Shown: in pieces, positions 1,239 through 46,864 of the stretch
How positions within the stretch are numbered: the first letter of the stretch is position 1
Layout of the letters: each line of letters starts with the position of its first letter
Source: a virus
IMG/VR virus record: IMGVR_UViG_3300045988_034415
Coordinates: 82,807-146,806 of that record
DNA length: 64,000 nucleotides
Strand: one strand, 5' to 3'
Notes under the pieces: model-generated
Database searches by the model: none
Seen by the model: only the letters and a program-made list of their open reading frames with translations
Told to the model about the DNA's origin: nothing
Made by a program: the position numbers and the translations under genes

Positions 1239-1239
1239 G

Positions 1240-2903: not shown

Positions 2904-2933
2904 CTTAATGAAAACGTTATGAGATTATAATAA

Positions 2934-4382: not shown

Positions 4383-4400
4383 ATCACTTAAATTTTAATC

Positions 4401-4436
4401 ATTATAAAATAAAGGAGGGATGCTACTCCCTCCTTC
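4401..4436 (-). terminator. rho-independent terminator after gene 4448..6403
   Basis: GGAGGGA...TCCCTCC strong hairpin (4412-4435) followed on the minus strand by UUUAUUUUAUAAU. Confidence 0.55.
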
Positions 4437-4447
4437 TTGTACATATA

Positions 4448-6403
4448 TTATAGTTCAACCCAATCCCATGCAGCTTCTAGTTTACCAATAGCGGCATTAA
4501 GTGAATCACCAGCAGCAATTGCACCTGTATCTGACGGTTTGGTATAACCAGTCATTGCAGTTACCTTATTAGAAGCCAGATTGGCTAGAGTAGTAGCTAG
4601 TGTAACGTTAGCAGAACCATCTAAAGAAACACTTCCAGTTACACCACCACTAACTGTGATAGTACGAGCAGTAGCCCATTTAGCAGCAGTATCAGCCGCG
4701 CCAGCAGTAGCAGGTTTACCAATACTAATTGTTTGTTTAGAACCTCCAGAAGGAGTTACGTTGAATGAGCCGTTTCCTCCAACGAACGTATAAGTAGTAT
4801 TAGTATCAGCTCCTGGAATACCCAAAGCTGTAATATCAGCCTTAGTAACAGCGGTTACTGAAGCAACGTGGCTAGTAGAATCTGTGCTGAATTTATAGAA
4901 TCCAGAAGTCTTACTAGGAGCACCTCCAGCAGGGTGAGTATAAACTGTGTCCTTCTCTGCTTGCCATGCAGGACCACTAGCAGTAGCTTTCAGTACATAT
5001 CCAGTAGTACCGTTAGCTAGAGCTTTAACAGTAGACCCACCGTTACCTAAAATTACTGCGTTAGCAGTTAGGGATTTGCCAGTAACAGCACCGTCTAAGT
5101 TTCTCTGAATAACTGACCAGTCACCATTTGCAGCAGTCGTTCCAGATTTAACACAGATAATCATGTCACCTGCTTCACAACCTTCGCCCGCAAAGTTACC
5201 AGCAGCCTTAACTACGTAAGTATCTCCAACTGTGTGATTAGCTGGAAGTTCAGTTACATCACCGTCTGTACCAATAGTTCCTTTGAATCTAAGTGCTTGA
5301 GCAGCAGAAATCTTACTTCCAATCTCGTTAATTACAAATGCAGTAGTTGCAATTTGAGTAGTATTAGTTCCACCAGCAGCAGTAGGAGCTGTAGGAGTTC
5401 CAGTAAACGCTGGGCTTGTAAACATTGTAGCCTTAGATTCATTTGTTACGTTACCTAAGCCTACATCAGCTTTAGTAACAGTAACATTAGCACTAAGTGC
5501 ATGTCCGTTTACAGTTCTAGTATTTGGAACAGCATTATCAGCCTTAGTACCTTGAGCAGCAGTTGCATATGCAGACGATGCTGTATATGCAGCAGAACCT
5601 AATCCTTTAACAGCAACATCAGTTCCGTCAATTGCAATAGTACCATTAGCAGAACCAGAAGCAGCCGTGGTTGCAGCACCATTAATTGTTACTTTACCAG
5701 TAGCATCAGCTGTAACTGTTACTTTACCAGTACCAGTAATTTGATGTGAGCTTCTTACTGCACCATTCTCAATTAAGTTCAAGAATGTAGTAGCATTAGT
5801 AGTTGCTGCATTAGCTGTAGCTGTAGCAGAAGCGCCAACAACATTCTTAGCTTGCCAGTTAGTAAATGAAGGAGCAGCTGGCATAGTCATTGTAGTAGTT
5901 CCTTTAGCTGTAACGTGTCCTTGTGCATCATAAGTAATGCTAGGAATAGTAAACGTTCCACCAAATGCTAATGTCTTACTATTATCACCTTTAGCTGTGC
6001 CAGCAGTTACTGAATTAGAGTGATTAATTGTAGTACCTTCAATAGAGATACCAGAACCTTGTGTGTATTTAGTATCTGTAGCGCTAATTGTTACTCCATC
6101 TGTTCCGACAGTGATATTTACATTAGAGCCTTTGTTGAATTTAAGAGTTCCGTCATGAGAAGGAGACTCTGCAACATTAGTACCGTCAGAAACTTTAGAG
6201 AAGGCCTTGGCAGCCTGTAAAGCTGCCACAGCACTCTCCAATGAAGTAATTTTGCCTTTGTAAGAATCGGGAATAGCGTAGAACGTTCCATGAGTATAAA
6301 TCTCCTGTGAATCTTTAATGAAAACAATACTATTGGTGTATTGTTCTTGTAGTTCACTGGTAAATGTGGACTTCTTCGCTACGTGTACAAACATTTTCTC
6401 CAT
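4448..6403 (-). CDS. tail fibre-like protein (651 aa), paralogue family
   Basis: ORF track; A/T/G-rich repetitive fibre composition; N-terminal SIVFIKDSQEIYTHGTFYA motif. Confidence 0.6.
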   Translation of the reverse strand: MEKMFVHVAKKSTFTSELQEQYTNSIVFIKDSQEIYTHGTFYAIPDSYKGKITSLESAVAALQAAKAFSKVSDGTNVAESPSHDGTLKFNKGSNVNITVGTDGVTISATDTKYTQGSGISIEGTTINHSNSVTAGTAKGDNSKTLAFGGTFTIPSITYDAQGHVTAKGTTTMTMPAAPSFTNWQAKNVVGASATATANAATTNATTFLNLIENGAVRSSHQITGTGKVTVTADATGKVTINGAATTAASGSANGTIAIDGTDVAVKGLGSAAYTASSAYATAAQGTKADNAVPNTRTVNGHALSANVTVTKADVGLGNVTNESKATMFTSPAFTGTPTAPTAAGGTNTTQIATTAFVINEIGSKISAAQALRFKGTIGTDGDVTELPANHTVGDTYVVKAAGNFAGEGCEAGDMIICVKSGTTAANGDWSVIQRNLDGAVTGKSLTANAVILGNGGSTVKALANGTTGYVLKATASGPAWQAEKDTVYTHPAGGAPSKTSGFYKFSTDSTSHVASVTAVTKADITALGIPGADTNTTYTFVGGNGSFNVTPSGGSKQTISIGKPATAGAADTAAKWATARTITVSGGVTGSVSLDGSANVTLATTLANLASNKVTAMTGYTKPSDTGAIAAGDSLNAAIGKLEAAWDWVEL

Positions 6404-6421
6404 TTTAATATATTATGTGTT

Positions 6422-7405
6422 TTATTCAGTTACTTCGTGCCAAGCCATAGCTGCGTCGATAGCTGTATTAATTGTCGAAACTACAGTAGTGGTGATTCCA
6501 ACAAGTTTAGCCTCGTTAGCAGCAACTCTAACTTCTAGAGCATCAATATCTGAAGCGTTAGTGTCAATAAGTGCAAGTTTAGTTTCTGGAATCAGAGTAC
6601 TACCTTCTACCTTATCAACTTTATTAGCTACTAAATTACTAACATCACTAACTTTAGTATCTGCATAATCTTTAGCCTGTTTCAGAGTATTAGCTAGAGA
6701 ACCTTCAGCATCAGCACTACCATTAATCTTAGCAATAGCTTGAGTATTAGTAGTAATTTTACCGTCTAATGCAGTATCAGCTGCTTCTCTTAAAGTCTTC
6801 TCTGCATCAACAGCAGCTGCAATTGCAGCATCTGCTTGAGTCTTATTGTAGTATGCAGACAGGTCAATAGCTCCACCCAGAGCATCCCATGCTGTACCAG
6901 TCCATGCCCAGTTAGTACCAGCTGGATGATTGTCATGAGCTTCCTCTACATTCCATACATCACCTGCTGCTGCATCACTAGGAAGTTCTGCATAAGTAGC
7001 TTTGGAGCCTTTGTATGAATATACAGAAGAAATTTTGCCCTCAAGGGTAGTAACTCTCTGTCCTAATACTCTACCTTGATTAGCTGACAATGCAGCAGTG
7101 GTAGAAGAAGAATTTAAGTTGTCAATAATCTCTACTGTCTGTGCAGCAGCAACGTCCATTTGTTTCCATCCGGAGTAATCTGCTTCCAGAATTTTATCTT
7201 TATCAACTAGCATATAAATTGCCTTATCAGCAGCAACGGCTACTAACAATCCATTATATACGTAGATAGTATCGCCATCATACGGCCAAGTCTCTTTATT
7301 AATAAGTTCAGACTTATTATCTACTAAGATTCTTGGGTCTAAAGCACCTTGAAGTTTAACCTCAAAGTTGGCTGCAAATTGGAATGTACCTTTATTTCTT
7401 GCCAT
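6422..7405 (-). CDS. tail/structural protein (327 aa), paralogue family
   Basis: ORF track; N-terminal DTIYVYNGLLVAVA version of the shared motif; Ala-rich coiled segments. Confidence 0.55.
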   Translation of the reverse strand: MARNKGTFQFAANFEVKLQGALDPRILVDNKSELINKETWPYDGDTIYVYNGLLVAVAADKAIYMLVDKDKILEADYSGWKQMDVAAAQTVEIIDNLNSSSTTAALSANQGRVLGQRVTTLEGKISSVYSYKGSKATYAELPSDAAAGDVWNVEEAHDNHPAGTNWAWTGTAWDALGGAIDLSAYYNKTQADAAIAAAVDAEKTLREAADTALDGKITTNTQAIAKINGSADAEGSLANTLKQAKDYADTKVSDVSNLVANKVDKVEGSTLIPETKLALIDTNASDIDALEVRVAANEAKLVGITTTVVSTINTAIDAAMAWHEVTE

Positions 7406-7413
7406 ATGTCAAA

Positions 7414-8490
7414 TTAGAATTTAGCGATTAAAGTTACTGAACCTCTAGTAGAACCATTGTAAGTGTAAACTGAATAAGTTACAGGTGTGGTTCCAATAGT
7501 AATCTCTTCTTCTGTCTTAGTCCAGTCACTAAGTCCTATAACTTCCATGTTACCTGATACTGTGTTCAACATTTGAAGTTGAGTGACAGCTCTTGGCAGC
7601 TTGAATACCTGTGGAAGAGTACCAGAAGGTTGTAATTCAAATCTAGGAGTAGTCATAGCTCCAGTAGAAGTATTCCAAGCAATAAGAGCTTGTTTAACCA
7701 CAGGCGCACCAGAAGAAGCTGTACTTGTAGATGCATACCAAGGATATGTACCATTAAGTGTGATAGCTGAAGAGTTAACCGAACCAGCTGCAAGTGGAGT
7801 GCTATAATTGTTTCCTTTGTTATCTTTAGGTTGAGGTCCTTGCAAATAAGCTGCCTTATAAGTATAAGTAGTATTACCAAGTGTTACAGTAGTAGGCAGA
7901 GTTGTGTTAGACTCTTGTCCATTTACGAAGATAAATGAATTATCTGCATCTAAGTTACCAGACCTGTCTGCTTGTTTTGTTCCATTTAAGGTAATAGCTC
8001 CCTTATTAAGACTAGTGTTGAAGTTAGCAGCAGTAGGTGCAGTAGCTCCAACTTCTTGAGGAGTTGAATAACTCTTAAATGAGATGCTTGCAGTAGGAGC
8101 AGTAAATGTAGGATTAATAGTAGGGAACAGCAGTTCATCCCACATATAATCATATGTCTGTCCTTCCAGAGCACTTACCTTAGTTCCTTTAGCGATACCA
8201 CCGACAGCATTAGGCATAGCTAAATCTTTGTCCTCAATAGCTGATGTATACTTACCGCTACCTACTTCAATCTCTGTTGTAGTAGTATCAGAGTAAGTAA
8301 TGACCAGTTTGCTTTTATCAGAAGACAAGGCTACATTAGTAACGACTTTACCAGCAGCTAGAGCTCCTGTGTAAGCCTTACCATTCATAAGGATTTCATT
8401 GGTGTCTGTAGCAAAGTAAATCCCATCCTTGTGAGTAGTTTCAGCTACGTAATTGGCTTTTAACCCTCTGTAAAATTTTAATTGTGCCAT
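7414..8490 (-). CDS. structural protein (358 aa), paralogue family
   Basis: ORF track; N-terminal MAQLKFYRGLKANY...GIYFATDTNEILMNGKAYTG motif. Confidence 0.55.
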   Translation of the reverse strand: MAQLKFYRGLKANYVAETTHKDGIYFATDTNEILMNGKAYTGALAAGKVVTNVALSSDKSKLVITYSDTTTTEIEVGSGKYTSAIEDKDLAMPNAVGGIAKGTKVSALEGQTYDYMWDELLFPTINPTFTAPTASISFKSYSTPQEVGATAPTAANFNTSLNKGAITLNGTKQADRSGNLDADNSFIFVNGQESNTTLPTTVTLGNTTYTYKAAYLQGPQPKDNKGNNYSTPLAAGSVNSSAITLNGTYPWYASTSTASSGAPVVKQALIAWNTSTGAMTTPRFELQPSGTLPQVFKLPRAVTQLQMLNTVSGNMEVIGLSDWTKTEEEITIGTTPVTYSVYTYNGSTRGSVTLIAKF

Positions 8491-8504
8491 AAAATTTAAT
8501 GATG

Positions 8505-10109
8505 TTATTTAATAAATATGTTAATGGGGAGCACAGTATTATCACTGAATCTTACCTCCCCGCCAGTTATTTCACCACTGGCATTCTTATACAAATCTAC
8601 TCCAGTTGGAGTTATAGTTCCATATGTTTCCCAAGTTTCTCCATTCCAAGCATAGTTAGCACCGTCATTAATAACGTTGTAAATATCACCTACTTCTGGA
8701 GCAGAAGGTAAATACATACGAGTAGCTACAGACCCCTTATATCTAATAGCTGTAGAATCAGAAGATATAAGTATATCTCCATTACCGAGTACTGACTTAC
8801 CATTAATCTTCTTAATGTTAACTCCACTAACAAGCTTATCTTGTTTAGTAGATAGTAAGTACTCCATAGTATCTTTCAATGTATTAATTGATTGTTGTAT
8901 ATGTGTTAAGTCAATAGATACATCTTCGGAACCGTCGTAACTAACTTCTCCTTCAGAATGCTTAACTGTTAAAGTTCCTACTGGATAACTCTCTGGTAAA
9001 TCAGCGAGTCTGGTAGCTTTAGCAGTAGTTACTTCATTCCAAGTATAAGAAGTCAAGTCTGACATTAATGCAAGTGAATCAGTGTCTTCCCCTACTACAA
9101 CGGCTGGTCTTGTATTAGTGTATATCTCCAGATAAGAATTAACATTACCAAGTTTAAACCCTCCGGAATTGTCAGATGATATTAAATTCTGAACACCGTC
9201 TCTACGATTAACCACAATTCCTTGACCTTCCTCTAATACTATATTACCATCAACCAAACTAACTTTATTGTCTAAATCACTTTCGATATTAGATATAAGA
9301 GCGTCAGTTTCTGATTTAGTATAATATAAGTCAGGGTCTAAACCTCCACCACCTTCAGAGGCATATTTAACTCCATTAAGGTAAATAGACTTAATGTCCT
9401 TTATGAAGTAAATGGTATTAGGTTCCAAAGTCTGTAGTAAATACTCATCGTAAGTATCTACGGCTTTAATTCTTACTGGATATTCTGTACCTTCCCAACT
9501 AAATTTACAAACAACTCCTTTATCACCCTTAGTAATAACTATGTTAGAATCAGCATCAGTATCAACTACTAAGTCTGCCCTAACTCCAAAGTTTGAAGTT
9601 AATAAATCTACAGACCTATTAGTAATTGGATTATTAATCCTTAACTCTGATGCAATATTACCATTCTTAGTCTGGGTAATAATAGTATTAGTTATTTGTC
9701 CTTTAACTACAAAGTCTTCCAGAGACACTTCAAATCTATCTCCATTAGAAGCAGTAAGTATCAGCCATTCCTCATTCAGTGCATTACCGAATCCGTTATC
9801 TATATCCTCTTGTGTTATAAGATGTCTTTCAAATGAAACTATCTTAGTATCTTTATCAAGAAGGATTGATGATATTTCCTCACCACTTCCTCCTTTACCT
9901 ATAACTCTAACCTTATTACCTTCTTCTTGAGTATCGAGTTCTACTATACCAGTTACCTGGGTAGCAATAGCATCTTTGATAGCTTTAGAAGAAGGAATAG
10001 AGTCTTCAACGTCTATTGAGTCCGACACCGTATATGGGCCATATGTTGTCCACAAGTAGTCCAACTGGCTCATATTAGCGGGTCTATTAGGATACTGTTT
10101 CTTCATCAC
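8505..10109 (-). CDS. tail/structural protein (534 aa)
   Basis: ORF track; internal NTIYFIKDIKSIYLNGVKYASEGGGG copy of the shared motif. Confidence 0.5.
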   Translation of the reverse strand: MMKKQYPNRPANMSQLDYLWTTYGPYTVSDSIDVEDSIPSSKAIKDAIATQVTGIVELDTQEEGNKVRVIGKGGSGEEISSILLDKDTKIVSFERHLITQEDIDNGFGNALNEEWLILTASNGDRFEVSLEDFVVKGQITNTIITQTKNGNIASELRINNPITNRSVDLLTSNFGVRADLVVDTDADSNIVITKGDKGVVCKFSWEGTEYPVRIKAVDTYDEYLLQTLEPNTIYFIKDIKSIYLNGVKYASEGGGGLDPDLYYTKSETDALISNIESDLDNKVSLVDGNIVLEEGQGIVVNRRDGVQNLISSDNSGGFKLGNVNSYLEIYTNTRPAVVVGEDTDSLALMSDLTSYTWNEVTTAKATRLADLPESYPVGTLTVKHSEGEVSYDGSEDVSIDLTHIQQSINTLKDTMEYLLSTKQDKLVSGVNIKKINGKSVLGNGDILISSDSTAIRYKGSVATRMYLPSAPEVGDIYNVINDGANYAWNGETWETYGTITPTGVDLYKNASGEITGGEVRFSDNTVLPINIFIK

Positions 10110-11478
10110 CTTCTACGTCAATCCAAGTTACTTCACCACCTATATCATCTGGAAGTTGTTCTTTAGGAACCTTTCCACTTACTAAATCTGCTTTAGACTT
10201 TAGTAGAATTTCAACTTCGGGCAAAGAAATGGCTCCAATCTGTGCTGGAGTGACTCTATGTGGATTGTTGAAATCTTTAAGGTGGCTATCAATATCACTT
10301 TGTAATTCACTAATAACAACATCCAAGGCTTTAGAATCATGTGTAATGTTATCGGAAGTACCTTTAACATACAGAGCATTTCCTTCTTTTACTAAGATGT
10401 TATCTTTAGCTGTATACAACCTAACGTCAGCAGAAAGCTTATCAGCGCCAGTTCCTAATGATAACACTTTCTCCAATTCTACTACCTTATCAGGAATAGA
10501 GTTATCAACTTCCCATTCTCTAATAAGAGTTCCAACTGGAATCCTAACTACTTGCTTATCACCAGTTAGAAGTTTAAATACTATAACTAGCTCTTCCGTA
10601 TCTGGGTCGTACTTAGCATCCTCTACGATAGCTGACAAACCAATTTGATGTTGCCCTATAACATTATCGTTAACCTTAATAGTTAAGAGTCCGTCTAAAT
10701 ATTCAGTAGTTAGTTTATAGAATAGACCGTCATTCTTTATGGTAATTCCGTTACCACTATCAGTAGATACCTTAACATTACCAGATATTGTAGTTCCAGT
10801 AATCTGTCTATCAATATCTAATTCAATGCTTGGAGTATCCTCTAGTGTGACCCAGTTAAAGTGAATAGCATGATTCACTAATTCGTCTAGCTTGCGCAGA
10901 GAATCCATTACAGATGTAGAGTCTTTAAGGTAAGTAGTTTCAGTATCAGGAACATAAGCTCCGTCTTCTCCCAAACCTACTCCTTCTTGTGTCTTATCGA
11001 GTTCGGCTTGCACCTTGTCAATATTACTCTGTAATTCCTCATCAGTGCTGTCTAGATTACCTAGATGCTCTCTAATTTTAGTAATTTCCTCTGCAATGTC
11101 CTTCAGACTGTTTAAGTCCTCTGGTACACTAGTATGGTCAACACTTCCCCAGATAGCATCGTCTGCTGTCTTTCTATCTTTAATTTCCTGCTCTAATCTA
11201 GTTATCAAGTCAGCTATAGTTTCATCACTCTTAGAAGTAATAAGTTTAGTAAACTCTAACTCATCGTTAGTCTCCTTTCTAGTGACCCAATATAGTGCTT
11301 GATTACCATCTCCGTCATTTTCAACTACCTTTAACAATCCCTTGTGTAAAATAGCATTCTCTTCAGGAGATGAATAAAATTCTTTCAGTTTCGCTTCAGT
11401 TTCGAAGATATAGTCAGCTTCTATAGGGAACGGACCACCTCTTCTAAAACTTGCTATAATTTCACTATATGCTCTCAT
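10087..11478 (-). CDS. tail fibre/hinge-like structural protein (463 aa)
   Basis: ORF track; acidic coiled-coil centre, beta-rich C-terminus; operon context. Confidence 0.5.
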   Translation of the reverse strand: MRAYSEIIASFRRGGPFPIEADYIFETEAKLKEFYSSPEENAILHKGLLKVVENDGDGNQALYWVTRKETNDELEFTKLITSKSDETIADLITRLEQEIKDRKTADDAIWGSVDHTSVPEDLNSLKDIAEEITKIREHLGNLDSTDEELQSNIDKVQAELDKTQEGVGLGEDGAYVPDTETTYLKDSTSVMDSLRKLDELVNHAIHFNWVTLEDTPSIELDIDRQITGTTISGNVKVSTDSGNGITIKNDGLFYKLTTEYLDGLLTIKVNDNVIGQHQIGLSAIVEDAKYDPDTEELVIVFKLLTGDKQVVRIPVGTLIREWEVDNSIPDKVVELEKVLSLGTGADKLSADVRLYTAKDNILVKEGNALYVKGTSDNITHDSKALDVVISELQSDIDSHLKDFNNPHRVTPAQIGAISLPEVEILLKSKADLVSGKVPKEQLPDDIGGEVTWIDVEGDEETVS

Positions 11479-11483
11479 ACTTA

Positions 11484-13253
11484 TTAAATGTTAGCTGGGT
11501 CAAACTTAAATGTTACCTCCAAGTTGAGAGTTACTAGAGACTCCTTGAATACATATATCTTATATATTTTACTATTTGACAATCCAGGAATTTCAAATGG
11601 GATATCACTAATAATGTCAAATGATTCAAGACCAAACTGTTGAGAAGGCGTTGTCATTTGAACTAAGTCTGGATATTCCTTAGGCATTGCTACAAATATT
11701 TGCTTAAGCTCTCTAGGACTTGAGAAATTATATTTGTGTTTGATTTCTGATACTAAATCACCAGAACTGTCAATGCTATTGTTCTCTGGGTCTGATTGAA
11801 CTAGCTGAAGTAAGTAATCATAATTAACATTAGAGGCTGCATACCATTTAGGTAAGATTCCTACAAATATATCATATGCTACTTTAGTAGTACAACTAGC
11901 TTCCAGATATGTACCATTAGGATAGAATACTTTAAACGTAAAAGTAGTTTCTTCGTTAATAGGTAAACTCTTTACAGTCAACTGTCCTAATTCGAAATCG
12001 TCCTTAGTATATGTTCCAATAAGCTCATCGTTCTGCCATAATTCAGCATAAGATATCACTCCAGTAGAACCTCTAACGAATAGTTCAACGTCTACTATAG
12101 AACCCAGTAAAGCATACGCAGGAGCTTTAACATCTACAGATTTACCGTAGAAGATTGCATCCATAACCTCTTGAAGATTCAATTTCTCTCCTGGGTCAGT
12201 TTCATCTTCAACGAAGCCTACTGTAGTCTGAACTGGTCCACTAGTAATCCAAACAGGCTCTTCTACAATAGAAGCATCCAGTTGTCTCTTAGTTACTAAT
12301 TCGTCATCTTCTACAGCATCTACTCCCTTCTGTGGGGCAGTAAATGGAACTGAACCATCACGAGGTACATAATGCTTACTATAGATTTCTTTAAGAGTTC
12401 CATGAGGGTCATATTGATTGATATGTTCCTCAATAGCCCCTCTAGCCGCATCAATTACCAATTGATTAATAATGGCATCAATTTGAGCTCTTGAATAAGT
12501 CTCTGCTCTAGAGTAAGTTTCAGTCTTCCTGAAATAGTTGTTTAGTCTCTGATTAAGTAACGTTACAAATCCGTGAGGGTCTGCATCAACTAAATGTTTA
12601 AACATTACATCATCTACATATTTCTTAGTAGATAGATGCCCATCAGCTACTGGAGTAACTCCTAACTGTGGTTTTAAAAATGCAGTAGTTCCGTCACGTC
12701 TAACGAAATTCTTGATTAAGTCGTCAACTTGTTCTCTAGTATATAACTCTACCTTCCTATAAATCTGGTCAGTAGTTACATATACTTTAAGTATTTCCTC
12801 TACAAGAGGAATTATATTATGTGGGTCTGTTTTAGCTAAATGACTGTCCATTAAAGCAGTCACGAATCTCTTGGTTGTTAAATGAAAGTCTGTCAACGGG
12901 TCAACACCTGTTTGAGGTGCTAAGAATGGTGTGGTTCCATCCTCTTTAACAAAACCCTCCAGTTTACTTTCTATAGTAGGAATTATATTATGTGGGTCTT
13001 CAGTAGCTAGGTGAGTATCCATTGAGGTCTTAACTGCCTCTAATGTCTTTAAATCTGCTGAAGTCTTATCATAGACATCATTAATGCCAGCAGCTCCAAG
13101 ATTAATTCTAGCAATTTGTTTATCTGACTCACTCTCAAACTCCCCTAAGCGGTAATCTACTTTCAGAAATTGTGAAGTATCAATTTGTTCGTTAACAGGA
13201 TTGATACATTCATTTCCAGAACCACCTGGTGTTAAAATAGAGTTATCTGCCAT
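11484..13253 (-). CDS. tail fibre protein with three tandem 'DPHNIIP' repeat units (589 aa)
   Basis: ORF track; repeats HLATEDPHNIIPTIESKLEGFVKEDGTTPFLAPQTGV / HLAKTDPHNIIPLVEE...DGTTAFLKPQLGV / HLVDADPHGFVTLLNQ. Confidence 0.6.
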   Translation of the reverse strand: MADNSILTPGGSGNECINPVNEQIDTSQFLKVDYRLGEFESESDKQIARINLGAAGINDVYDKTSADLKTLEAVKTSMDTHLATEDPHNIIPTIESKLEGFVKEDGTTPFLAPQTGVDPLTDFHLTTKRFVTALMDSHLAKTDPHNIIPLVEEILKVYVTTDQIYRKVELYTREQVDDLIKNFVRRDGTTAFLKPQLGVTPVADGHLSTKKYVDDVMFKHLVDADPHGFVTLLNQRLNNYFRKTETYSRAETYSRAQIDAIINQLVIDAARGAIEEHINQYDPHGTLKEIYSKHYVPRDGSVPFTAPQKGVDAVEDDELVTKRQLDASIVEEPVWITSGPVQTTVGFVEDETDPGEKLNLQEVMDAIFYGKSVDVKAPAYALLGSIVDVELFVRGSTGVISYAELWQNDELIGTYTKDDFELGQLTVKSLPINEETTFTFKVFYPNGTYLEASCTTKVAYDIFVGILPKWYAASNVNYDYLLQLVQSDPENNSIDSSGDLVSEIKHKYNFSSPRELKQIFVAMPKEYPDLVQMTTPSQQFGLESFDIISDIPFEIPGLSNSKIYKIYVFKESLVTLNLEVTFKFDPANI

Positions 13254-38926: not shown

Positions 38927-39646
38927 CATCACAGGGTTTAGCTCTTCTAAGTAGTTGCAAATGCTTGGAATCCTTTACGTGCAAAATGGACATAATGCAT
39001 GTATTGCCCAAATTAAGACGTTCCTGCTTCACGCGTTAAAGCAGGAGTCCATTATGGTTGTTTTAATTACATTAATCTTTAAGTTTTAAACAGCGTCCTG
39101 CATTGTTTGTGGGTTTTGGTATGGCTCCTCTGCCAAGTAATGCGTACAAGAGCTATGATAGACTCACAAAGAAAATGTATTTGTGAGTAAACAATGGTGA
39201 AACCACATTGCTTTAAGTAGTAATGTGGGGACCATTCCGCCCTATTTGCAATTATGAACTGCATAGTGACAGAGACCTAAGAGAGGGAAGCAAATGAGCG
39301 TTGACTATCGTAGCGAAAGCTGCGTTCCACCATCGTACGTAGGGGTGTGTGGGTAATCGGCTAAAGGAACGTTCTGCAACTTGTGCCTCACAAGCATGAG
39401 TTGTACGTAGAGTACGTGTGGCAGCCTGGAATAGACAGGCAATTATATCAAAAACTCAATAACTTCCCAAGACATTGAGGGCACCAGTTTCTTATGGGCA
39501 GAAGTATGTTAGATAGGTCACTAGTTCTGTGCGCAGAGTTAGTAAGCTGTCGATTAAAGAGAGAAGCATTCGGCATGAGAACCCGACTACTCGTAAGTTT
39601 TAGGTGTAAAATGCAACCACTAGAAACCTCACACTGAATAGGTAAA
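38927..39646 (+). ncRNA. candidate large structured non-coding RNA (720 nt ORF-free, GC-enriched block)
   Basis: No ORF of 60 aa or more on either strand except a short antisense one; GC content visibly above the flanking genes; GNRA hairpin cgtaGCgaaaGCtgcg at ~39306-39321. Confidence 0.3.
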
Positions 39647-43446: not shown

Positions 43447-43515
43447 AGAGGATTAGTTCAATGGTAGAAGGCTAGTTGCGAACTGGCGGAGGGAGTTCGA
43501 ATCTCCCATCCTCTC
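43447..43515 (+). tRNA. tRNA (short D-arm), anticodon probably GCG (Arg)
   Basis: Acceptor AGAGGAT/ATCCTCT, T-arm GGGAG-TTCGAAT-CTCCC, anticodon loop TTGCGAA; D-arm non-canonical so the isotype is uncertain. Confidence 0.55.
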
Positions 43516-43596
43516 CAATCATTTTAAAGTTTTGTATAGTTTAGGCTTGCCCCAGTCATGTTGTGAAACACACTTGGGCTTTTAATTAATAAGTGT

Positions 43597-43950
43597 ATGA
43601 ATCAGAATGCAGTTAATTCTTTAAGGAATGCCAAGAGGCATATTCTTATTAGCGATGTTGATAAGTTCAATAGCCATTTATTGTATTACATATTAAATGT
43701 TATATATGGAACACATGACCATATTAAATTAAATACGATACGTGAAAGACTTGAACGTGAGCTTAAATGGTCATTGGACGAGCATATTCCTGATAAGGAT
43801 GTAATTAGAGAATGGCTTGACAATGATTACCCTCTTATATGCATAACAGAGTTATCGTTTGACAGTTGTATTAAACTTGCCAACGATTTCCCAGATTATG
43901 AAATTGTAGTTTATAGTTGGATGAAACATGAAGGGAACTTACCATTTTAA
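43597..43950 (+). CDS. hypothetical protein (117 aa)
   Basis: ORF track. Confidence 0.45.
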   Translation: MNQNAVNSLRNAKRHILISDVDKFNSHLLYYILNVIYGTHDHIKLNTIRERLERELKWSLDEHIPDKDVIREWLDNDYPLICITELSFDSCIKLANDFPDYEIVVYSWMKHEGNLPF

Positions 43951-44086
43951 ATGGAATAAAAATAACTCCTAGGCTATTAAGTCTGTAATGGGTACGCTAC
44001 TCAATGTAGCACAGGAAGATACTGATAGCTTTTTTGTTCAGGTTTGAGAGACCTCCTGGCATGAGAGGATAATCATGCCGTTCTAT

Positions 44087-44608
44087 GGGCCTAGATTTGG
44101 TTTTGACAGGCGATTACAAGTTAGTAAGACGTGTAGAGTTCGTACCAACTCTTTAATAATGATACAGCAATTTAAGTGGAAACACTGAAGTAAGAATGGC
44201 AGCCTAAGCTGCTGGCTTAATTAGTGGACGTCATTGATTAAGTCGGGTTAATTGGAGAGACCTAGAAACAGAAGAGGTGTGGGAAGAAGCGTATAGAGCA
44301 GCCCACTTAACTTGAAAGCCAAAGGTTAGTAAAGCTGAAATCTCCACTACCTATCTATGGGTTACAAATAGAAACGTTCTCCAACGTAAATGGAGTGGTG
44401 GAGCGACCGTTCGGTCAAGCCCAGTTTGGTAGTTTGTGAACAACTAAGTCGTAGCCCTACGAGGGAGACGTAATTGGTGAATTAACACTCGGCTTCTTAG
44501 TAAAACTACCTACATGCTGAACTCAACAGCTGATGTAATAAAATAGAGACACACGTAATCTTATTAATGAGGGTTGTTTGGACGGCGGTTCGACTCCGCC
44601 TAGGTCCA
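44087..44608 (+). ncRNA. ssrA: tmRNA (ssrA), ~520 nt
   Basis: 5' GGGCCUAGAUUUGGUUUUGACAGGCG resembles E. coli GGGGCUGAUUCUGGAUUCGACGGG; 3' GGACGGCGGUUCGACUCCGCCUAGGUCCA resembles GGACGCGGGUUCAACUCCCGCCAGCUCCACCA; acceptor GGGCCUA pairs with UAGGUCC; short frame ...GNTEVRMAA-TAA at 44163-44207 about 90 nt from the 5' end. Confidence 0.7.
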
Positions 44609-44636
44609 CTATTATTAACGTTTAAATATCAATTTT

Positions 44637-44990
44637 ATGGGATTATTTATTATTGCAGTGATTGTTTTACTTATTTGTGTATGTCTTTCGCGAGTAGGGT
44701 CTAAAGACCTAAGAGGAGTTGCAGTGGCAGTTGAGGTTGTATTCTCAATAGCAACAGTTGGGGCAGCGATTTCATTACCATTCGCTATTACAAGGAATAT
44801 TCAAATTATTGGCAAGCACGCAGTGCTCAAAGAAACATTGGAGGCTACTGATAGGAAGAATTACTATCTTATATCTAGTGATGTCTTAAGGCTTAATTAT
44901 ACCATCATGAATCATAGGAACTTTGTAGACAACTTCTGGATTGGGATATGGTATGATAAGGACGTAGCTAAATTGGAACTATTAAAATGA
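44637..44990 (+). CDS. membrane protein (117 aa)
   Basis: ORF track; two hydrophobic helices. Confidence 0.45.
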   Translation: MGLFIIAVIVLLICVCLSRVGSKDLRGVAVAVEVVFSIATVGAAISLPFAITRNIQIIGKHAVLKETLEATDRKNYYLISSDVLRLNYTIMNHRNFVDNFWIGIWYDKDVAKLELLK

Positions 44991-45268
44991 AAGCAAGGTT
45001 ATTAAAGAAACTTCGCAAGGAGTCAAAGAAGCTGAAATTAATAAGAGGTGAGGATTATCAATACATAGTTACTGATAGTCCTCATGACATATTAAGACCA
45101 AAGCTTGATACTTACTACAGTGGCACATACTACTGTGGTCAAGAATTATTATTTGACGAAGATGTAATTGCATGGTTACATCAATGCAGACGTAATTGGA
45201 TTCTGTCCGAGGTTAAACGAATGCGTGTACATCTGCGTAAATCTCGAATTAGAATATATAAAGAGTAA
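44987..45268 (+). CDS. hypothetical protein (93 aa)
   Basis: ORF track. Confidence 0.45.
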   Translation: MKARLLKKLRKESKKLKLIRGEDYQYIVTDSPHDILRPKLDTYYSGTYYCGQELLFDEDVIAWLHQCRRNWILSEVKRMRVHLRKSRIRIYKE

Positions 45269-45294
45269 TTGTTTCACTAAAAGTTATTGAAATT

Positions 45295-45792
45295 ATGGGA
45301 AAGAGGTCAATATCCGATGATGACATCGTTCGGATTTTTAACACGGTAAAGGCAATGAATCCTGGGCCTTTTAAGATTACAGATGTAGTCAGGGATTTAA
45401 AGAAGAATGGCTTCCCAAGGCCAGAGAACTTCATGGCTGTTTTGCGTAAGCAGGGAGTGATTGAACCTGACGGTGCTATCTATACTAAAGGATTTATGTG
45501 GAAAGAACATGGCCCTTTGTATAAGACTAGAGTCATTGAATTGATAACTATCAGCAGGAAAGAAATGGCTAAGATACAGAGAGATGCATATGCTAAGAGA
45601 ATGGCTATTAAAGCTGGCACTTACGTAGCACCTCCTAAACCTAAGCCACAAGCTGAAATGGAAGCTGTTACAGAAGCGGAAGAAGACAAACATCTGATTC
45701 CTATTACACAGGCTGAAATGGAAGCAATCAAATTCCTGAAATCGAGAGGTTATAGAATCACTAAATTAATAACAGTTGAACAGATAGTATGA
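45295..45792 (+). CDS. hypothetical protein (165 aa)
   Basis: ORF track. Confidence 0.45.
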   Translation: MGKRSISDDDIVRIFNTVKAMNPGPFKITDVVRDLKKNGFPRPENFMAVLRKQGVIEPDGAIYTKGFMWKEHGPLYKTRVIELITISRKEMAKIQRDAYAKRMAIKAGTYVAPPKPKPQAEMEAVTEAEEDKHLIPITQAEMEAIKFLKSRGYRITKLITVEQIV

Positions 45793-46484
45793 AGTTTACA
45801 GTACAAGGGAACACGCCATTCAGTGCACACATTTGCCAATATCTATATGATTTGGAAAGCAACTTTGCTAAGGAGAAACTATCATTGCCACTTAGTCAGA
45901 TTATAGCTCATATCTTATATGGGACTAAGAGAATCAGACTTGGTAATGAAGCTATTCCGTCCGAAGCAATCACTATTTTGGAAGAATGTATTGAAGCTAA
46001 TCAGCCAATACCAGTCAATTGTATCTTCGGCAGTTCTGAATCGGAGAAAGACTATGTTGACATTGCTGAATTTCAATCTCTTCAAACGTTGAAGGATATA
46101 AGCAGGAGAGTTGCTAAATTCTACTATCCAGGCTTGAACATAAGACTAGATGTAGTAGGCGATTCAAAATATGTTAGTAAGGTGATGAGACTAGCAACAG
46201 TCCTAGGTGGTTTTACCATAGGCACACACCAATCAGCTATTAATGTATCATTCGCTCACTACCGGCCAGCACACTATTATTATAAGTCTATTCCGTCTCG
46301 AAACATTCTACGAGGTGGATATGTTCCAGCTTGGGACGGTAGAGGTTATTTATACTTAGAATCCCCACATGATATTGTGAGTATGATAACTACAGCTGAC
46401 AATCCTGATATTCTTTCGACGACTGTGGTGTTAGAAGCAAACGAAGAGACGGTAGACCTTCGTGTGGACTATCTAATACCGTAA
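45789..46484 (+). CDS. hypothetical protein (231 aa)
   Basis: ORF track. Confidence 0.5.
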   Translation: MKFTVQGNTPFSAHICQYLYDLESNFAKEKLSLPLSQIIAHILYGTKRIRLGNEAIPSEAITILEECIEANQPIPVNCIFGSSESEKDYVDIAEFQSLQTLKDISRRVAKFYYPGLNIRLDVVGDSKYVSKVMRLATVLGGFTIGTHQSAINVSFAHYRPAHYYYKSIPSRNILRGGYVPAWDGRGYLYLESPHDIVSMITTADNPDILSTTVVLEANEETVDLRVDYLIP

Positions 46485-46864
46485 ATCCACTATTGACGAA
46501 TAGTGGTAGCAAAACTTGGTCTGAAGAACCAGTAGACATATTCCGGAGTATGTCTATGACTTAAAGGCTATATCAAAGAGTTGAAACCTGTATCTATTCG
46601 AACAGTAGGAGTTCACCTGATTAAGCATCAGAAAACAGTAGTGCAAATCTACTATAGATATTGTGTAAGAGAGAATCTACACGGTCTGCATTATATAATC
46701 AGCATGCAGATAGGTCACCAAGCAAACCTCTTTCCTGCCTGGTCAAGTGTGCATTACGGTCTGTAAGTGGCGAGCGGGTTAACGTATGTCCGATTGCCGT
46801 AATGCCGCTTGTTTATTGTTTAGAATAAAGAAAGACTCTCATAACAATAAATTTAAACAAAGAG

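What the first reader, a model, noticed from the sequence alone, without database searches (positions are those of the whole stretch)
44087..44608. Phage-encoded tmRNA (ssrA) of ~520 nt
The 5' end GGGCCUAGAUUUGGUUUUGACAGG and the 3' end GGACGGCGGUUCGACUCCGCCUAGGUCCA match both ends of the bacterial tmRNA tRNA-like domain nearly motif for motif (E. coli GGGGCUGAUUCUGGAUUCGACGGG ... GGACGCGGGUUCAACUCCCGCCAGCUCCACCA). The acceptor stem pairs GGGCCUA with UAGGUCC. A short frame ending ...NTEVRMAA-stop at 44163-44207 lies where the tag ORF is expected. The tag is non-canonical and the molecule is long, which suggests a divergent phage-adapted trans-translation RNA, possibly tagging host or phage nascent chains for its own purposes.
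Basis: partly seen in the sequence, partly recalled or inferred. Interest (0 to 1): 0.7.

Follow-up and report, generated by a model that had tools for sequence, protein, structure and literature searches.

The report
Oversized tmRNA gene in gut phage
A large crAss-like phage of human-gut Bacteroidota carries its own complete ribosome-rescue RNA (tmRNA); the kind is known, but this lineage is about 130 bases longer than its hosts' version, which is why ARAGORN, the usual phage annotation tool, misses it.

Summary
Window 44087-44608 (+) is a complete one-piece tmRNA gene: Rfam RF00023 gives 83.7 bits (threshold 47), E = 5e-31, over the full model. It has a 7-bp acceptor stem with G3:U70 and A73, a T-arm, a long H2 helix, pseudoknot PK1, and a tag frame GGA-AAC-ACU-GAA-GUA-AGA-AUG-GCA-GCC-UAA (GNTEVRMAA, 44178-44207) with the stop in the H5 loop. 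I found about 100 homologous loci on 90-270 kb human-gut viral contigs (77 distinct full-length sequences, 511-604 nt). Covariation supports the core helices (92.8% of cells paired against 35-47% in slid controls). The tag is under peptide-level selection: synonymous codons, whole-codon indels, and the consensus [A/G]x4-7[R/K][M/L]AA. The phage is a distant crAss-like phage, probably Zeta group, with a Bacteroides-type host. The RNA keeps Bacteroidota features (Gly resume codon, upstream element, no encoded CCA) but is 110-200 nt longer than host tmRNAs (352-413 nt), with an expanded, modular central domain. ARAGORN misses it only because of this length. No SmpB gene was found in 151 kb. It most likely performs ordinary trans-translation with host factors. 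This is a new member of a known kind, of moderate interest.

The parts
44087..44608 (+). Complete one-piece tmRNA (ssrA) gene, 522 nt up to discriminator A73. CCA is not encoded (the next bases are CUA).
   Evidence: Rfam RF00023 at 83.7 bits, E 5e-31, full model. Lies in an ORF-free gap. 77 distinct homologues. MFE z-score -2.8. CCA absent in 74/77 family members and in most host genes.
44087..44093 (+). Acceptor stem (H1), 5' strand GGGCCUA, with G3 of the G3:U70 alanine identity pair.
   Evidence: Pairs with 44601-44607. G3:U70 is present in 48/48 distinct rows. Stem variants GGGCCUG/CAGGUCC, GGGCCAU/AUGGUCC, GGGCUUG/CAAGUCC and GGGGAUG/CAUCUCC are compensatory.
44094..44106 (+). D-loop analogue GAUUUGGUUUUGA(C), with UUGA invariant in the family and the host-type UUUGAC motif.
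   Evidence: Invariant columns T17 T18 G19 A20. The same motif occurs in Bacteroidota tmRNAs.
44107..44134 (+). H2 connector helix, 5' strand (segments 21-26, 35-43 and 44-48 of the RNA).
   Evidence: Pairs with 44551-44580. 11 pairs show changes on both sides, and 94-100% of cells are paired.
44135..44166 (+). Pseudoknot PK1. H3 is AGAGU/ACUCU (RNA 49-53/62-66). H4 is CGUACCA/UGAUACA (55-61/74-80), with C.A mismatches at 55:80 and 59:76.
   Evidence: Rfam aligns the same pairs. Among 38 members with this long form, pair 57:78 is U-A in 29, C-G in 8 and U.G in 1, and 55:80 shows C-G and U-A variants. H4 fails in the global alignment (37.7% paired) because 36/77 members carry a short hairpin instead.
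44172..44177 (+). Upstream frame-setting element (-6 to -1), UUAAGU.
   Evidence: Family consensus is (A/U)UAANU, against host UUAAAC, UUAAUU, AUAAUU and AUAACU. The role of -6..+1 in resume-codon positioning via SmpB is from PMC3985003.
44178..44207 (+). Tag reading frame GGA AAC ACU GAA GUA AGA AUG GCA GCC UAA, encoding GNTEVRMAA plus stop. The resume codon is Gly.
   Evidence: Rfam alignment. 77/77 members keep an in-frame stop, with 18 peptide and 22 nucleotide variants, whole-codon indels, and last codon GCC/GCU/GCG. ARAGORN calls exactly this tag once the RNA is shortened.
44198..44213 (+). Helix H5, GGCAGC-CUAA-GCUGCU, with the stop codon in the loop.
   Evidence: 100% paired. Compensatory versions GGCUGC/GCAGCU (L233, L222) and GGUAGC/GCUACU (L220) appear in the tag-independent set.
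44214..44244 (+). Variable hairpin module M1, with closing stem GGCUU/AAGUC.
   Evidence: Closing stem 98% paired. The interior is replaced by different but fully pairing sequences in other members. Also present in the MFE structure.
44245..44263 (+). Conserved hairpin GGGUU-AAUUGGAGA-GACCU, followed by the conserved A-rich linker AGAAACAGAAGAGGU (44264-44278).
   Evidence: RNAalifold. 100% paired but almost invariant, so uninformative for covariation.
44279..44306 (+). Variable module M2. In the window it is a 5-bp stem GUGGG/CCCAC with an 18-nt loop. Relatives have a longer stem that appears to be capped by an H-type pseudoknot (read by eye from the alignment).
   Evidence: Alternative forms in alignment A2 columns 201-287. 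MFE structure. The pseudoknot in sister forms comes from my own reading of the aligned sequences, not from a formal test.
44317..44327 (+). Small hairpin AGCC-AAA-GGUU.
   Evidence: Pair 234:238 is C-G in 31 and U-A in 16, and the alternative form reads ACUC-UAA-GAGU. 88% paired.
44349..44371 (+). Internal H-type pseudoknot. S1 is ACCU/GGGU (RNA 263-266/273-276) and S2 is CUAU/AUAG (269-272/282-285).
   Evidence: Among 24 members with this module, 263:276 is A-U in 17, G-C in 5 and G.U in 2, and 266:273 is U.G, U-A or C-G. S2 never varies, so it is inferred from geometry only.
44405..44416 (+). Hairpin GACC-GUUC-GGUC (module M4).
   Evidence: Versions UGAC-UUCG-GUCA, GACU-UCU-AGUC, GACU-AUUC-AGUC and GAUUG-UUAAAC-CAAUC occupy the same place. 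Two compensatory pairs were found in the global scan.
44428..44510 (+). Helix GGUAGUUU/AAACUACC (RNA 342-349/417-424) enclosing variable module M6 (350-416). In sister forms M6 appears to be an H-type pseudoknot (read by eye). The window's version is unresolved.
   Evidence: Helix 97.9% paired, with one pair changed on both sides. The alternative M6 forms were read from alignment A2.
44516..44530 (+). Hairpin GCUG-AACUCAA-CAGC.
   Evidence: 100% paired, with two pairs changed on both sides.
44551..44580 (+). H2 connector helix, 3' strand.
   Evidence: See the 5' strand entry.
44584..44600 (+). T-arm GGCGG-UUCGACU-CCGCC, preceded by GGAC.
   Evidence: 100% paired. Three of five pairs show changes on both sides in 18-29 of the 48 distinct sequences.
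44601..44608 (+). Acceptor stem 3' strand UAGGUCC plus discriminator A73.
43447..63862 (+). Context: the phage tRNA gene array (24 same-strand tRNAs) in which the tmRNA is embedded.
   Evidence: ARAGORN and Rfam. In relatives a tRNA starts 3-4 nt after the tmRNA.
50877..50949 (+). Context: an amber-suppressor-like tRNA (anticodon CUA), 6.3 kb downstream on the same strand. Any functional link to the tmRNA is hypothetical.
   Evidence: The same arrangement occurs in 3 of 13 related loci with enough flank.

Best explanation
This is a functional, phage-encoded, one-piece tmRNA that carries out ordinary trans-translation in the infected Bacteroidota cell using host factors. Shown here: it is a complete tmRNA gene, conserved with covariation, and its tag is under selection. 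Inferred: it is transcribed with the phage tRNA array, and its ends are cut by the tRNA-processing enzymes (RNase P at the 5' end). CCA is then added post-transcriptionally, since it is not encoded, as in host genes. Host AlaRS charges it with alanine through G3:U70/A73, and host SmpB and EF-Tu deliver it to ribosomes stalled at the 3' ends of broken or read-through mRNAs. Translation then resumes at GGA (44178) and adds Ala-GNTEVRMAA. This releases the ribosome and marks the product for host proteases that recognise hydrophobic-Ala-Ala C-termini. The benefit to the phage is extra rescue capacity, so that ribosomes stay available for phage protein synthesis while infection generates many non-stop messages. 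The extra 110-200 nt are expansions of the pseudoknot ring (PK2-PK4 region), which is known to tolerate change. They are not a new functional principle.
For: Identity: Rfam RF00023 gives 83.7 bits, E 5e-31, over the full model, and 14/14 diverse relatives score 56-99 bits. Structure: 92.8% of cells are paired against 35-47% in slid controls, 21 pairs change on both sides against 1-8, and 0/500 shuffles reach the observed values. G3:U70 is invariant. PK1 H4 covaries within the window's form, and an internal H-type pseudoknot covaries in S1. Tag translation: all 77 members keep the frame, indels are whole codons, the last Ala uses GCC, GCU or GCG, Gly uses GGA or GGC, and the ending is [R/K][M/L][A/V]A even in members found without using the tag. 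ARAGORN calls GNTEVRMAA* independently. Host-factor compatibility: the Gly resume codon, the -6..-1 element, the UUUGAC motif, acceptor variants identical to Prevotella and Parabacteroides, and the absence of encoded CCA all match Bacteroidota tmRNAs. No SmpB was found in the window, in about 1 Mb of family flanks, or in 87 kb more of the same phage, and the positive control was found. Phage context: terminase and portal, crAss-like TerL, and a position inside the tRNA array. Phage tmRNAs with this proposed role are known (PMC7162821).
Against: Nothing here shows expression, processing, charging or tagging. SmpB was sought only with an E. coli probe and in about 151 of an estimated 175-190 kb, so a divergent or distant phage SmpB is not excluded. 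About half the family lacks a recognisable PK1 helix H4. The canonical PK2-PK4 could not be mapped, and the window's modules M2 and M6 are structurally unresolved. The strongly conserved R/K at -4 and M at -3 differ from the host YALAA and may mean that the tag's fate is not the ordinary one. Positions -3 to -1 also lie in helix H5, so part of their conservation could be structural.
Confidence: 0.72

Rival explanations
1. Coupled suppressor and rescue module. The phage's amber-suppressor tRNA(CUA), which its own genes do not need, drives host ribosomes through UAG stops. A fraction of them run to mRNA 3' ends. The phage tmRNA is there specifically to clear those ribosomes and to tag the aberrant host proteins, so the two genes together act as a host shut-off and ribosome-recycling device.
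For: tRNA(CUA) lies at 50877-50949, 6.3 kb downstream on the same strand. Structural genes read through in the standard code, and TAG is the rarest stop (5 of 59 long ORFs). Zeta clade 8 phages keep a CTA suppressor without recoding, an unexplained puzzle (PMC12386605). Suppressor tRNA read-through is a documented source of trans-translation substrates (Ueda 2002, cited in PMC3985003).
Against: Only 3 of 13 related loci with at least 8 kb of downstream flank have a suppressor tRNA nearby, so the two genes are not tightly linked, although whole genomes could not be examined. Many phages carry tmRNAs without suppressors. Most read-through ends at a downstream stop rather than at the mRNA end.
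Confidence: 0.12
2. Tag-specialised or decoy tmRNA. The RNA competes with host tmRNA for SmpB and stalled ribosomes in order to change the outcome. Its ...V-R-M-A-A tag would direct products to a different protease or adaptor, or slow their degradation. Alternatively, its enlarged central domain recruits a phage factor. In this reading the point is to subvert host trans-translation rather than supplement it.
For: The tag differs consistently from the host GENNYALAA, with near-invariant R/K at -4 and M at -3 across 18 peptide variants. The central domain is 110-200 nt larger than in hosts and shows no detectable similarity to them. No phage SmpB was found, so the RNA must share the host's.
Against: The C-terminal hydrophobic-Ala-Ala is the ordinary degradation signal, and MAA endings occur in other tmRNAs. 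Conservation of -3 to -1 is partly explained by helix H5. The central modules are swapped freely among relatives, which argues against a single specific binding partner.
Confidence: 0.1
3. Non-functional relic or artefact: a captured host ssrA gene decaying in the phage genome, a bacterial fragment mis-assembled into a viral contig, or the ssrA 3' fragment that marks a prophage attachment site.
For: Phages often integrate into ssrA, and many IMG/VR contigs carry bacterial-type tmRNAs. Two relatives (L041, L232) have a tmRNA whose 3' acceptor strand is replaced by unrelated sequence.
Against: The gene is complete at both ends and lies between phage ORFs inside the phage tRNA array. The same locus is found in about 100 viral contigs. 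Helices are maintained by compensatory changes and the tag by synonymous changes, which is the opposite of decay. It is far from any host tmRNA in sequence and length.
Confidence: 0.03

Closest known systems
Chromosomal one-piece tmRNA (SsrA, Rfam RF00023) of Bacteroidota, e.g. Segatella copri, Prevotella and Parabacteroides (tag GENNYALAA)
   Same: Same overall order: acceptor, D-analogue UUUGAC, H2, PK1, upstream (A/U)UAANU element, tag, H5 with the stop, structured ring, H2, GGAC plus T-arm, acceptor. Both use a Gly (GGN) resume codon, a tag of 9-11 codons ending Ala-Ala, and usually no encoded CCA. Some phage members use the very acceptor-stem variants seen in Prevotella (GGGCUUG) and Parabacteroides (GGGGAUG).
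   Different: 511-604 nt instead of 352-413 nt. Similarity is detectable only over the first ~95 and last ~60 positions. The central ring has more helices, and its modules occur in discrete, shuffled alternative forms. The tag core is x-V/Y-R-M-A-A instead of N-Y-A-L-A-A. Half the family replaces PK1 with a simple hairpin. The gene is encoded by a phage.
Phage-encoded tmRNAs reported in huge phages (Al-Shayeb et al. 2020, PMC7162821) and, from my own knowledge, in cluster C mycobacteriophages and other large phages. Many tmRNAs on IMG/VR contigs were seen here.
   Same: A tmRNA gene carried by a large phage together with many tRNA genes. The presumed role is to sustain translation during infection.
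   Different: Those were found with ARAGORN, which cannot see this family. Huge phages sometimes also encode SmpB, and none was found here. The host phylum and phage lineage (crAss-like) differ. I found no report of a tmRNA in crAss-like phages in the searched literature.
Escherichia coli SsrA (363 nt, tag ANDENYALAA)
   Same: Both have G3:U70, PK1 before the tag, the stop codon in H5, and a tag ending hydrophobic-Ala-Ala.
   Different: The resume codon is Gly rather than Ala. There is no encoded CCA. The RNA is about 160 nt longer, and there is no alignable PK2-PK4 (the Rfam alignment skips 114 and 158 nt).

Membership tests
tmRNA, standard one-piece (Rfam RF00023) | Covariance-model score above the curated gathering threshold over the whole model | tested here: met
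   83.7 bits against 47, E 5.3e-31, model 1-374. 14/14 relatives score 56-99 bits.
tmRNA, standard one-piece (Rfam RF00023) | tRNA-like domain: the 5' and 3' ends form a 7-bp acceptor stem, plus a T-arm with a GGUUCGANUCC-type loop | tested here: met
   H1 is 97.9% paired and the T-arm 100% paired, with 3 covarying pairs. Additional compensatory acceptor variants were found.
tmRNA, standard one-piece (Rfam RF00023) | Alanine identity: G3:U70 wobble pair and discriminator A73 | tested here: met
   G:U at pair 3:70 in 48/48 distinct sequences. A follows the stem in all members. Actual charging is not testable here.
tmRNA, standard one-piece (Rfam RF00023) | 3'-terminal CCA | tested here: not met
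   The gene reads ...GGUCCA-CUA, and CCA is encoded in only 3/77 family members. It is also missing from about 93% of the Bacteroidota tmRNA genes sampled (7/101 have it), so it is presumably added enzymatically. This is a property of the gene, not of the mature RNA, and does not exclude membership.
tmRNA, standard one-piece (Rfam RF00023) | Internal tag reading frame without a start codon, beginning at a resume codon, ending at an in-frame stop, and encoding a peptide with a hydrophobic-Ala-Ala C-terminus | tested here: met
   GNTEVRMAA-UAA at 44178-44207. The frame is kept in 77/77 members, with synonymous substitutions and whole-codon indels. ARAGORN calls the same tag on the shortened RNA.
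tmRNA, standard one-piece (Rfam RF00023) | Conserved sequence at -6 to -1 upstream of the resume codon (frame setting through SmpB) | tested here: met
   UUAAGU in the window. The family consensus (A/U)UAANU overlaps the host set, with AUAAUU and AUAACU shared. The role of the element is from PMC3985003.
tmRNA, standard one-piece (Rfam RF00023) | Pseudoknot PK1 immediately upstream of the tag | tested here: met
   For the window's form, H3 has 5 bp and H4 covaries at 57:78 (U-A 29, C-G 8, U.G 1). Not met for 36/77 relatives, which have a 4-bp hairpin with a 6-nt loop instead.
tmRNA, standard one-piece (Rfam RF00023) | Helix H5 containing the end of the tag and the stop codon | tested here: met
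   GGCAGC-CUAA-GCUGCU is 100% paired, with compensatory variants in tag-independent members.
tmRNA, standard one-piece (Rfam RF00023) | Ring of three further pseudoknots (PK2-PK4) between H5 and the 3' strand of H2 | tested here: inconclusive
   Rfam leaves 114 and 158 nt unaligned here. I find at least 9 helical elements. One H-type pseudoknot has covariation in S1. Five elements have compensatory support: three hairpins, the long helix 342-349/417-424 and the M1 closing stem. Sister forms of two modules look like pseudoknots by eye. A one-to-one match to PK2, PK3 and PK4 could not be made.
tmRNA, standard one-piece (Rfam RF00023) | Works with SmpB | not testable with these tools
   No SmpB gene was found in 151 kb of this phage or in about 1 Mb of family flanks, and the control was found. 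Binding to host SmpB is inferred from conserved host-type motifs only.
Two-piece (circularly permuted) tmRNA | The acceptor 3' piece is encoded upstream of the coding piece | tested here: not met
   The order is standard, with the 5' acceptor strand first and the T-arm and 3' strand last. There is no RF04321 hit in the window.
Phage-encoded tmRNA | The gene lies within a bona fide phage genome rather than in flanking host DNA or at an att site | tested here: met
   Terminase, portal and tail fibres lie on the same contig. TerL is crAss-like. The gene is embedded in the phage tRNA array. The same locus occurs on about 100 viral contigs of 90-270 kb. The gene is complete, not a 3' fragment.
Zeta-group crAss-like phages (Crassvirales) | TerL in the crAss-like clade; genome 145-192 kb; many tRNAs; frequent CTA or TCA suppressors | tested here: inconclusive
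   TerL is only about 30% identical to classified crAss-like phages. At least 151 kb was recovered, and related contigs are 174-192 kb. There are 24 tRNAs plus tRNA-CUA and GC is about 37%. These features match clade 8 of PMC12386605 and the size range in PMC7886860. No Zeta reference genome was available for direct comparison.

The most novel reading that the evidence does not exclude
The tmRNA and the apparently 'useless' amber-suppressor tRNA of these Zeta-type crAss-like phages form one host-takeover device. The suppressor pushes host ribosomes past UAG stops. The oversized phage tmRNA, with its own conserved ...V-R-M-A-A degron and expanded scaffold, then captures those ribosomes, destroys the extended host proteins and returns ribosomes and amino acids to phage use. 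This would explain why suppressors persist in phages whose own genes are not recoded.
Probability: 0.1. Interest if true: 0.8.

Novelty: new member of a known kind. Interest (0 to 1): 0.42.

Why it matters
crAss-like phages are among the most abundant viruses in the human gut. The large Zeta-type genomes have been described in detail, including their tRNA sets and puzzling suppressor tRNAs, without any mention of a tmRNA (PMC7886860 does not appear among papers holding both 'crAss-like' and 'tmRNA'; PMC12386605 has zero mentions). This work shows that a whole family of such phages, about 100 loci here, encodes a complete tmRNA under selection. It also shows that ARAGORN cannot detect the gene because the RNA is too long. 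ARAGORN is the tmRNA caller in Pharokka and in the huge-phage surveys, so phage tmRNA counts from those pipelines are underestimates. The family also gives tmRNA biology a natural experiment: PK1 present or replaced by a hairpin, pseudoknot-ring modules swapped like cassettes, and a phage-specific degron. It offers a testable link to the suppressor-tRNA puzzle as well. Mechanistically it is most likely ordinary trans-translation.

Tried and rejected
(1) ARAGORN on the window, on the excised region and on 51 relatives found nothing. I first considered the non-standard acceptor stem, the UUUGAC motif or the missing CCA as the cause. Restoring each in silico did not help. Only shortening the central region did.

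(2) Two collection scans with a TLD pattern returned zero hits because I miscounted the T-stem spacing. The corrected loose pattern was too permissive and mostly returned unrelated tmRNAs, many of them permuted.

(3) The first family set was fetched with a pattern that included the tag end, so 'RMAA invariance' was circular. I repeated the scan with a tag-independent motif.

(4) A global covariation scan for pseudoknots in the central region was swamped by G-U-rich chance stacks and by non-homologous modules. Only sub-family analyses were informative. I could not resolve the fold of window modules M2 (44279-44306) and M6 (44436-44502), or decide between two alternative pairings around 44375-44395.

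(5) A stop-codon reassignment test by ORF coverage was inconclusive. The structural genes are uninterrupted in the standard code, so I treat the phage as not recoded in this window.

(6) Pfam and PHROG scans of 39 distinct window ORFs found no SmpB, release factor or tRNA-processing enzyme near the tmRNA. Packing all ORFs into pseudo-proteins for Pfam was abandoned as impractical and replaced by a local SmpB search.

(7) The sigma-70 promoter and terminator scan gave no more sites than chance and is not appropriate for Bacteroidota or crAss promoters.

(8) I considered and rejected four alternatives: an ssrA att-site fragment, a bacterial contaminant, a permuted tmRNA, and an intron-containing tmRNA. 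There is no intron hit at Rfam gathering thresholds.
Full report
**Observation**

Rfam's tmRNA model RF00023 matches 44087-44611 from model position 1 to 374 at 83.7 bits (gathering score 47), E = 5.3e-31. The match lies in a 686-nt gap without ORFs (43951-44636), on the same strand as the flanking genes. It is at the head of an array of 24 tRNA genes (43447-63862). One correction applies: the tag begins at 44178, not 44163.

**Anatomy** (RNA numbering, 1 = 44087)

- **Acceptor stem H1:** GGGCCUA (1-7) pairs with UAGGUCC (515-521), with a G3:U70 wobble and discriminator A522.
- **3' end:** the next bases are CUA, so CCA is not encoded.
- **D-loop analogue:** GAUUUGGUUUUGAC follows the acceptor strand.
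- **Connector helix H2:** three segments, 21-26/489-494, 35-43/473-481 and 44-48/465-469.
- **PK1:** H3 is AGAGU/ACUCU (49-53/62-66). H4 is CGUACCA/UGAUACA (55-61/74-80).
- **Upstream element:** UUAAGU (86-91).
- **Tag frame:** GGA AAC ACU GAA GUA AGA AUG GCA GCC UAA (92-121, which is 44178-44207), encoding GNTEVRMAA.
- **H5:** GGCAGC-CUAA-GCUGCU (112-127), with the stop codon in the loop.
- **Central domain:** about 300 nt of structured RNA.
- **T-arm:** GGAC followed by GGCGG-UUCGACU-CCGCC (498-514).

**Relatives**

GenBank phages hold only two unannotated human-faecal contigs with this RNA. IMG/VR holds many:
- A scan with the tag-end motif gave 70 loci.
- A scan with a tag-independent internal motif gave 108 loci.
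- Together these are about 100 loci, mostly on contigs of 90-270 kb with many at 174-192 kb.
- They yield 77 distinct full-length sequences of 511-604 nt.
- Fourteen diverse members all pass Rfam's threshold, at 56-99 bits.

In every locus the gene sits among tRNA genes. In several, a tRNA starts 3-4 nt after its 3' end, which implies co-transcription and tRNA-type end processing.

**Structure test**

I tested a 75-pair structure (13 helices, PK1 written as a pseudoknot) on alignment A2.

| Measure | Proposed structure | Slid controls |
|---|---|---|
| Cells forming standard pairs | 92.8% | 35-47% |
| Pairs with changes on both sides | 21 | 1-8 |
| Covariation score | 0.211 | 0.03-0.055 |

No shuffle out of 500 reached the observed values.

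- **Strongest helices:** H2 has 11 pairs with changes on both sides. The T-arm has 3 of 5. The acceptor stem shows further compensatory versions (GGGCCUG/CAGGUCC, GGGCCAU/AUGGUCC, GGGCUUG/CAAGUCC, GGGGAUG/CAUCUCC).
- **G3:U70:** never varies (48/48).
- **PK1 H4 fails globally** (37.7% paired), because 36 of 77 members have a different, short form (AGAG-CGCAAU-CUCU) with no evident second helix.
- **PK1 H4 within the window's form:** among the 38 long-form members, pair 57:78 is always formed and covaries (U-A 29, C-G 8, U.G 1), and 55:80 shows C-G and U-A variants.

Elements of the central domain with support:
- **Helix 342-349/417-424:** 97.9% paired.
- **Hairpin 430-444:** two compensatory pairs.
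- **Hairpin 231-241:** C-G changes to U-A.
- **Hairpin 319-330:** four different pairing versions.
- **Module M1 (128-158):** a closing stem that holds across members.
- **H-type pseudoknot at 263-285:** the first stem covaries (A-U 17, G-C 5, G.U 2; U.G, U-A, C-G). The second stem is invariant.

Three stretches (193-220, 260-288, 350-416) exist in several discrete alternative forms that are shuffled among members. In sister forms two of them read as a stem capped by an H-type pseudoknot (this is my reading, not formally tested). The full RNA folds 2.8 standard deviations better than shuffles. I could not map the canonical PK2, PK3 and PK4 one to one, and the window's versions of two modules remain unresolved.

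**The tag**

The first set of relatives was retrieved with the tag end, so its invariance there was circular. In the tag-independent set the same peptides reappear through synonymous codons:
- GGA or GGC for Gly, and GCC, GCU or GCG for the last Ala.
- UGA replaces UAA in three members.
- H5 changes by compensation (GGCUGC/GCAGCU, GGUAGC/GCUACU).

Over all 77 sequences:
- There are 18 peptides and 22 nucleotide versions.
- Lengths are 9-11 codons, differing only by whole codons, and every member keeps an in-frame stop.
- Resume codons are GCU 31, GGC 21, GGA 14 and GCA 11.
- Position -4 is R in 75 and K in 2. Position -3 is M in 76 and L in 1. Position -2 is A in 76 and V in 1. Position -1 is always A.

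This is the signature of a translated tag, though part of the constraint on the last three codons comes from H5. When I deleted part of the central domain in silico (total length 429 nt or less), ARAGORN recognised the RNA and independently reported the tag GNTEVRMAA* at positions 92-121. Restoring CCA, a canonical acceptor stem or an E. coli-type 5' region did not rescue detection. ARAGORN's failure is therefore a length or spacing limit, not a missing tmRNA feature.

**Phage and host**

- The window encodes a terminase large subunit, a portal and tail fibres.
- TerL is about 30% identical to the terminases of crAss-like phages of Bacteroides, Flavobacterium and Azobacteroides. It is 99.9% identical to an unannotated 117-kb human-faecal contig, MT835470.
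- MT835470 overlaps window 1-12,960 at 99% identity and adds 87 kb upstream.
- The combination of at least 151 kb recovered, relatives at 174-192 kb, GC of about 37%, 24 tRNAs, a tRNA(CUA) and no sign of recoding in the structural genes matches the Zeta group of crAss-like phages. The size range and suppressor tRNAs are described in PMC7886860.
- The closest fit is 'clade 8' of PMC12386605, with predicted host Bacteroides. This assignment rests on matching features, not on direct sequence comparison.

**Comparison with host tmRNAs**

A genome scan with the tag ENNYALAA (recalled from memory and used only as a probe) returned almost only Bacteroidota. ARAGORN found 101 tmRNAs in those loci, of 352-413 nt (median 396). 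All but a few have the tag GENNYALAA and resume codon GGC.

Features the phage family shares with them:
- the unusual Gly resume codon
- the upstream element, with AUAAUU and AUAACU occurring in both
- the UUUGAC and GGAC motifs
- acceptor-stem variants identical to Prevotella and Parabacteroides
- usually no encoded CCA (3/77 in the family, 7/101 in hosts)

Sequence similarity is detectable only in the first ~95 and last ~60 positions, and the phage RNAs are 110-200 nt longer. The RNA is therefore best read as a long-diverged, expanded derivative of a Bacteroidota tmRNA that has stayed compatible with host factors.

**SmpB**

A recalled E. coli SmpB sequence was first validated against Pfam (PF01668, 194 bits). 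I then used it to search six-frame translations of the window, about 1 Mb of family flanks and 87 kb more of the same phage. The only hit was a bacterial SmpB in a control locus. Within these limits (one probe, roughly 80% of the genome) the phage has no SmpB and must use the host's.

**Mechanism**

The best-supported reading is ordinary trans-translation by a phage-supplied tmRNA (confidence 0.72).
- **Shown:** gene completeness, structural conservation with covariation, the alanine identity pair, a tag under selection, host-type recognition elements, and phage context.
- **Inferred:** expression with the tRNA array, processing, CCA addition, charging, SmpB and EF-Tu delivery, tagging with Ala-GNTEVRMAA, and proteolysis of the products.
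- **Benefit:** the proposed benefit is extra rescue capacity to keep ribosomes available during infection, as suggested for huge phages (PMC7162821).

Rival readings:
- **Functional coupling to the amber suppressor tRNA at 50877-50949 (0.12).** Suppressor read-through is a documented source of tmRNA substrates (Ueda 2002, via PMC3985003). It would also explain the 'non-functioning suppressor' puzzle of Zeta phages. However, only 3 of 13 related loci with enough flank have the suppressor nearby.
- **A tag-specialised or decoy role (0.10).** This rests on the conserved R-M at positions -4 and -3.
- **A relic or artefact (0.03).** This is contradicted by covariation and synonymous change.

**Novelty and verdict**

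Phage-encoded tmRNAs are known, and tmRNAs on viral contigs are common. This is a new member of a known kind, not a new kind. What is new:
- the lineage, since I found no report of a tmRNA in crAss-like phages, and the dedicated Zeta paper does not mention one
- the size and the modular, expanded central domain
- replacement of PK1 by a hairpin in half the family
- the distinct conserved tag
- the practical point that ARAGORN-based pipelines, including Pharokka and the huge-phage survey, cannot see it

Interest is moderate (0.42). The most novel reading not excluded, a combined suppressor and tmRNA host-takeover device, gets probability 0.10 and would be of high interest if true.

Noticed in passing
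window 46487-46594 (+) and ORF 46865-48559 (+): A strong match to the RAGATH-34 RNA motif (RF03103, 120.9 bits, E 4e-19) lies directly upstream of a 564-aa ORF. The ORF's only hit is PHROG 850 'RNA-binding protein', and it has no Pfam hit. This may be an RNA-protein pair, 2 kb downstream of the tmRNA.
   Followed up: no
window 50877-50949 (+): An amber-suppressor-like tRNA (anticodon CUA; ARAGORN labels it Pyl; Rfam tRNA 62.7 bits) sits in a phage whose structural genes are uninterrupted in the standard code and in which TAG is the rarest stop (5 of 59 long ORFs). This is the 'non-functioning suppressor' situation described for Zeta clade 8 phages.
   Followed up: partly
window 39444-39496: A stretch of about 50 nt is 96-100% identical to unannotated intergenic DNA in many otherwise unrelated crAss-like phages (cr10_1, cr113_1, cr118_1, cr53_1 and others). 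ARAGORN finds no tRNA there. It may be a conserved regulatory or small-RNA element.
   Followed up: no
L031 (about 5275-5305), L033, L066; equivalent to window about 44422/44423: A 31-nt perfect hairpin (AGGUUUGGAAGCGUCAGCUUCUGAACCUUUA) is inserted in the tmRNA of three relatives, one of which (L031) is otherwise almost identical to the window. It looks like a recent helix insertion.
   Followed up: no
alignment A2 columns 201-287, 330-395, 500-565 (window about 44279-44306, 44346-44374, 44436-44502): The central tmRNA modules occur in a few discrete alternative forms that are combined differently in different phages. This mosaic pattern suggests recombination between phage tmRNA genes.
   Followed up: partly
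L045 2250-2323, L021 1361-1434, L037 830-903, L054 1708-1781: In several relatives a tRNA gene begins only 3-4 nt after the tmRNA 3' end, so the two must be cut from one precursor.
   Followed up: no
L012 3518-3589 (-): A pistol self-cleaving ribozyme (RF02679, 65.4 bits) lies about 2 kb from the tmRNA in a related phage.
   Followed up: no
L041 (about 7378-7966) and L232 (7187-7754): Two relatives have a tmRNA gene whose 3' acceptor strand is replaced by unrelated sequence. This is either an assembly break or a decayed copy.
   Followed up: no
L222 8209-8449 (-): The most host-like family member (acceptor GGGGAUG as in Parabacteroides, tag ANNSVRLAA, 99 bits to RF00023) also scores above threshold for the permuted-tmRNA model RF04321 over part of its length. 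This is probably a cross-hit.
   Followed up: no
window 58032-58120 (+) and 58059-58135 (-): ARAGORN calls two overlapping tRNAs on opposite strands, Ser-GCU (+) and Arg-UCG (-). Rfam lists neither above threshold.
   Followed up: no
window 55983-57944 (+) and 62531-63598 (+): An SPFH/Band 7 domain protein (PF01145, E 1e-24) and an adenylosuccinate-synthetase-like protein (PF00709, E 2e-33) are encoded inside the tRNA array.
   Followed up: no
window 44059-44082: An inverted repeat, GGCATGA-GAGGATAA-TCATGCC, ends 4 nt before the tmRNA 5' end. Its right arm, TCATGCC, is also present upstream of the tmRNA in some relatives (L030, L070) but not in others. It may be a processing or termination signal.
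   Followed up: no
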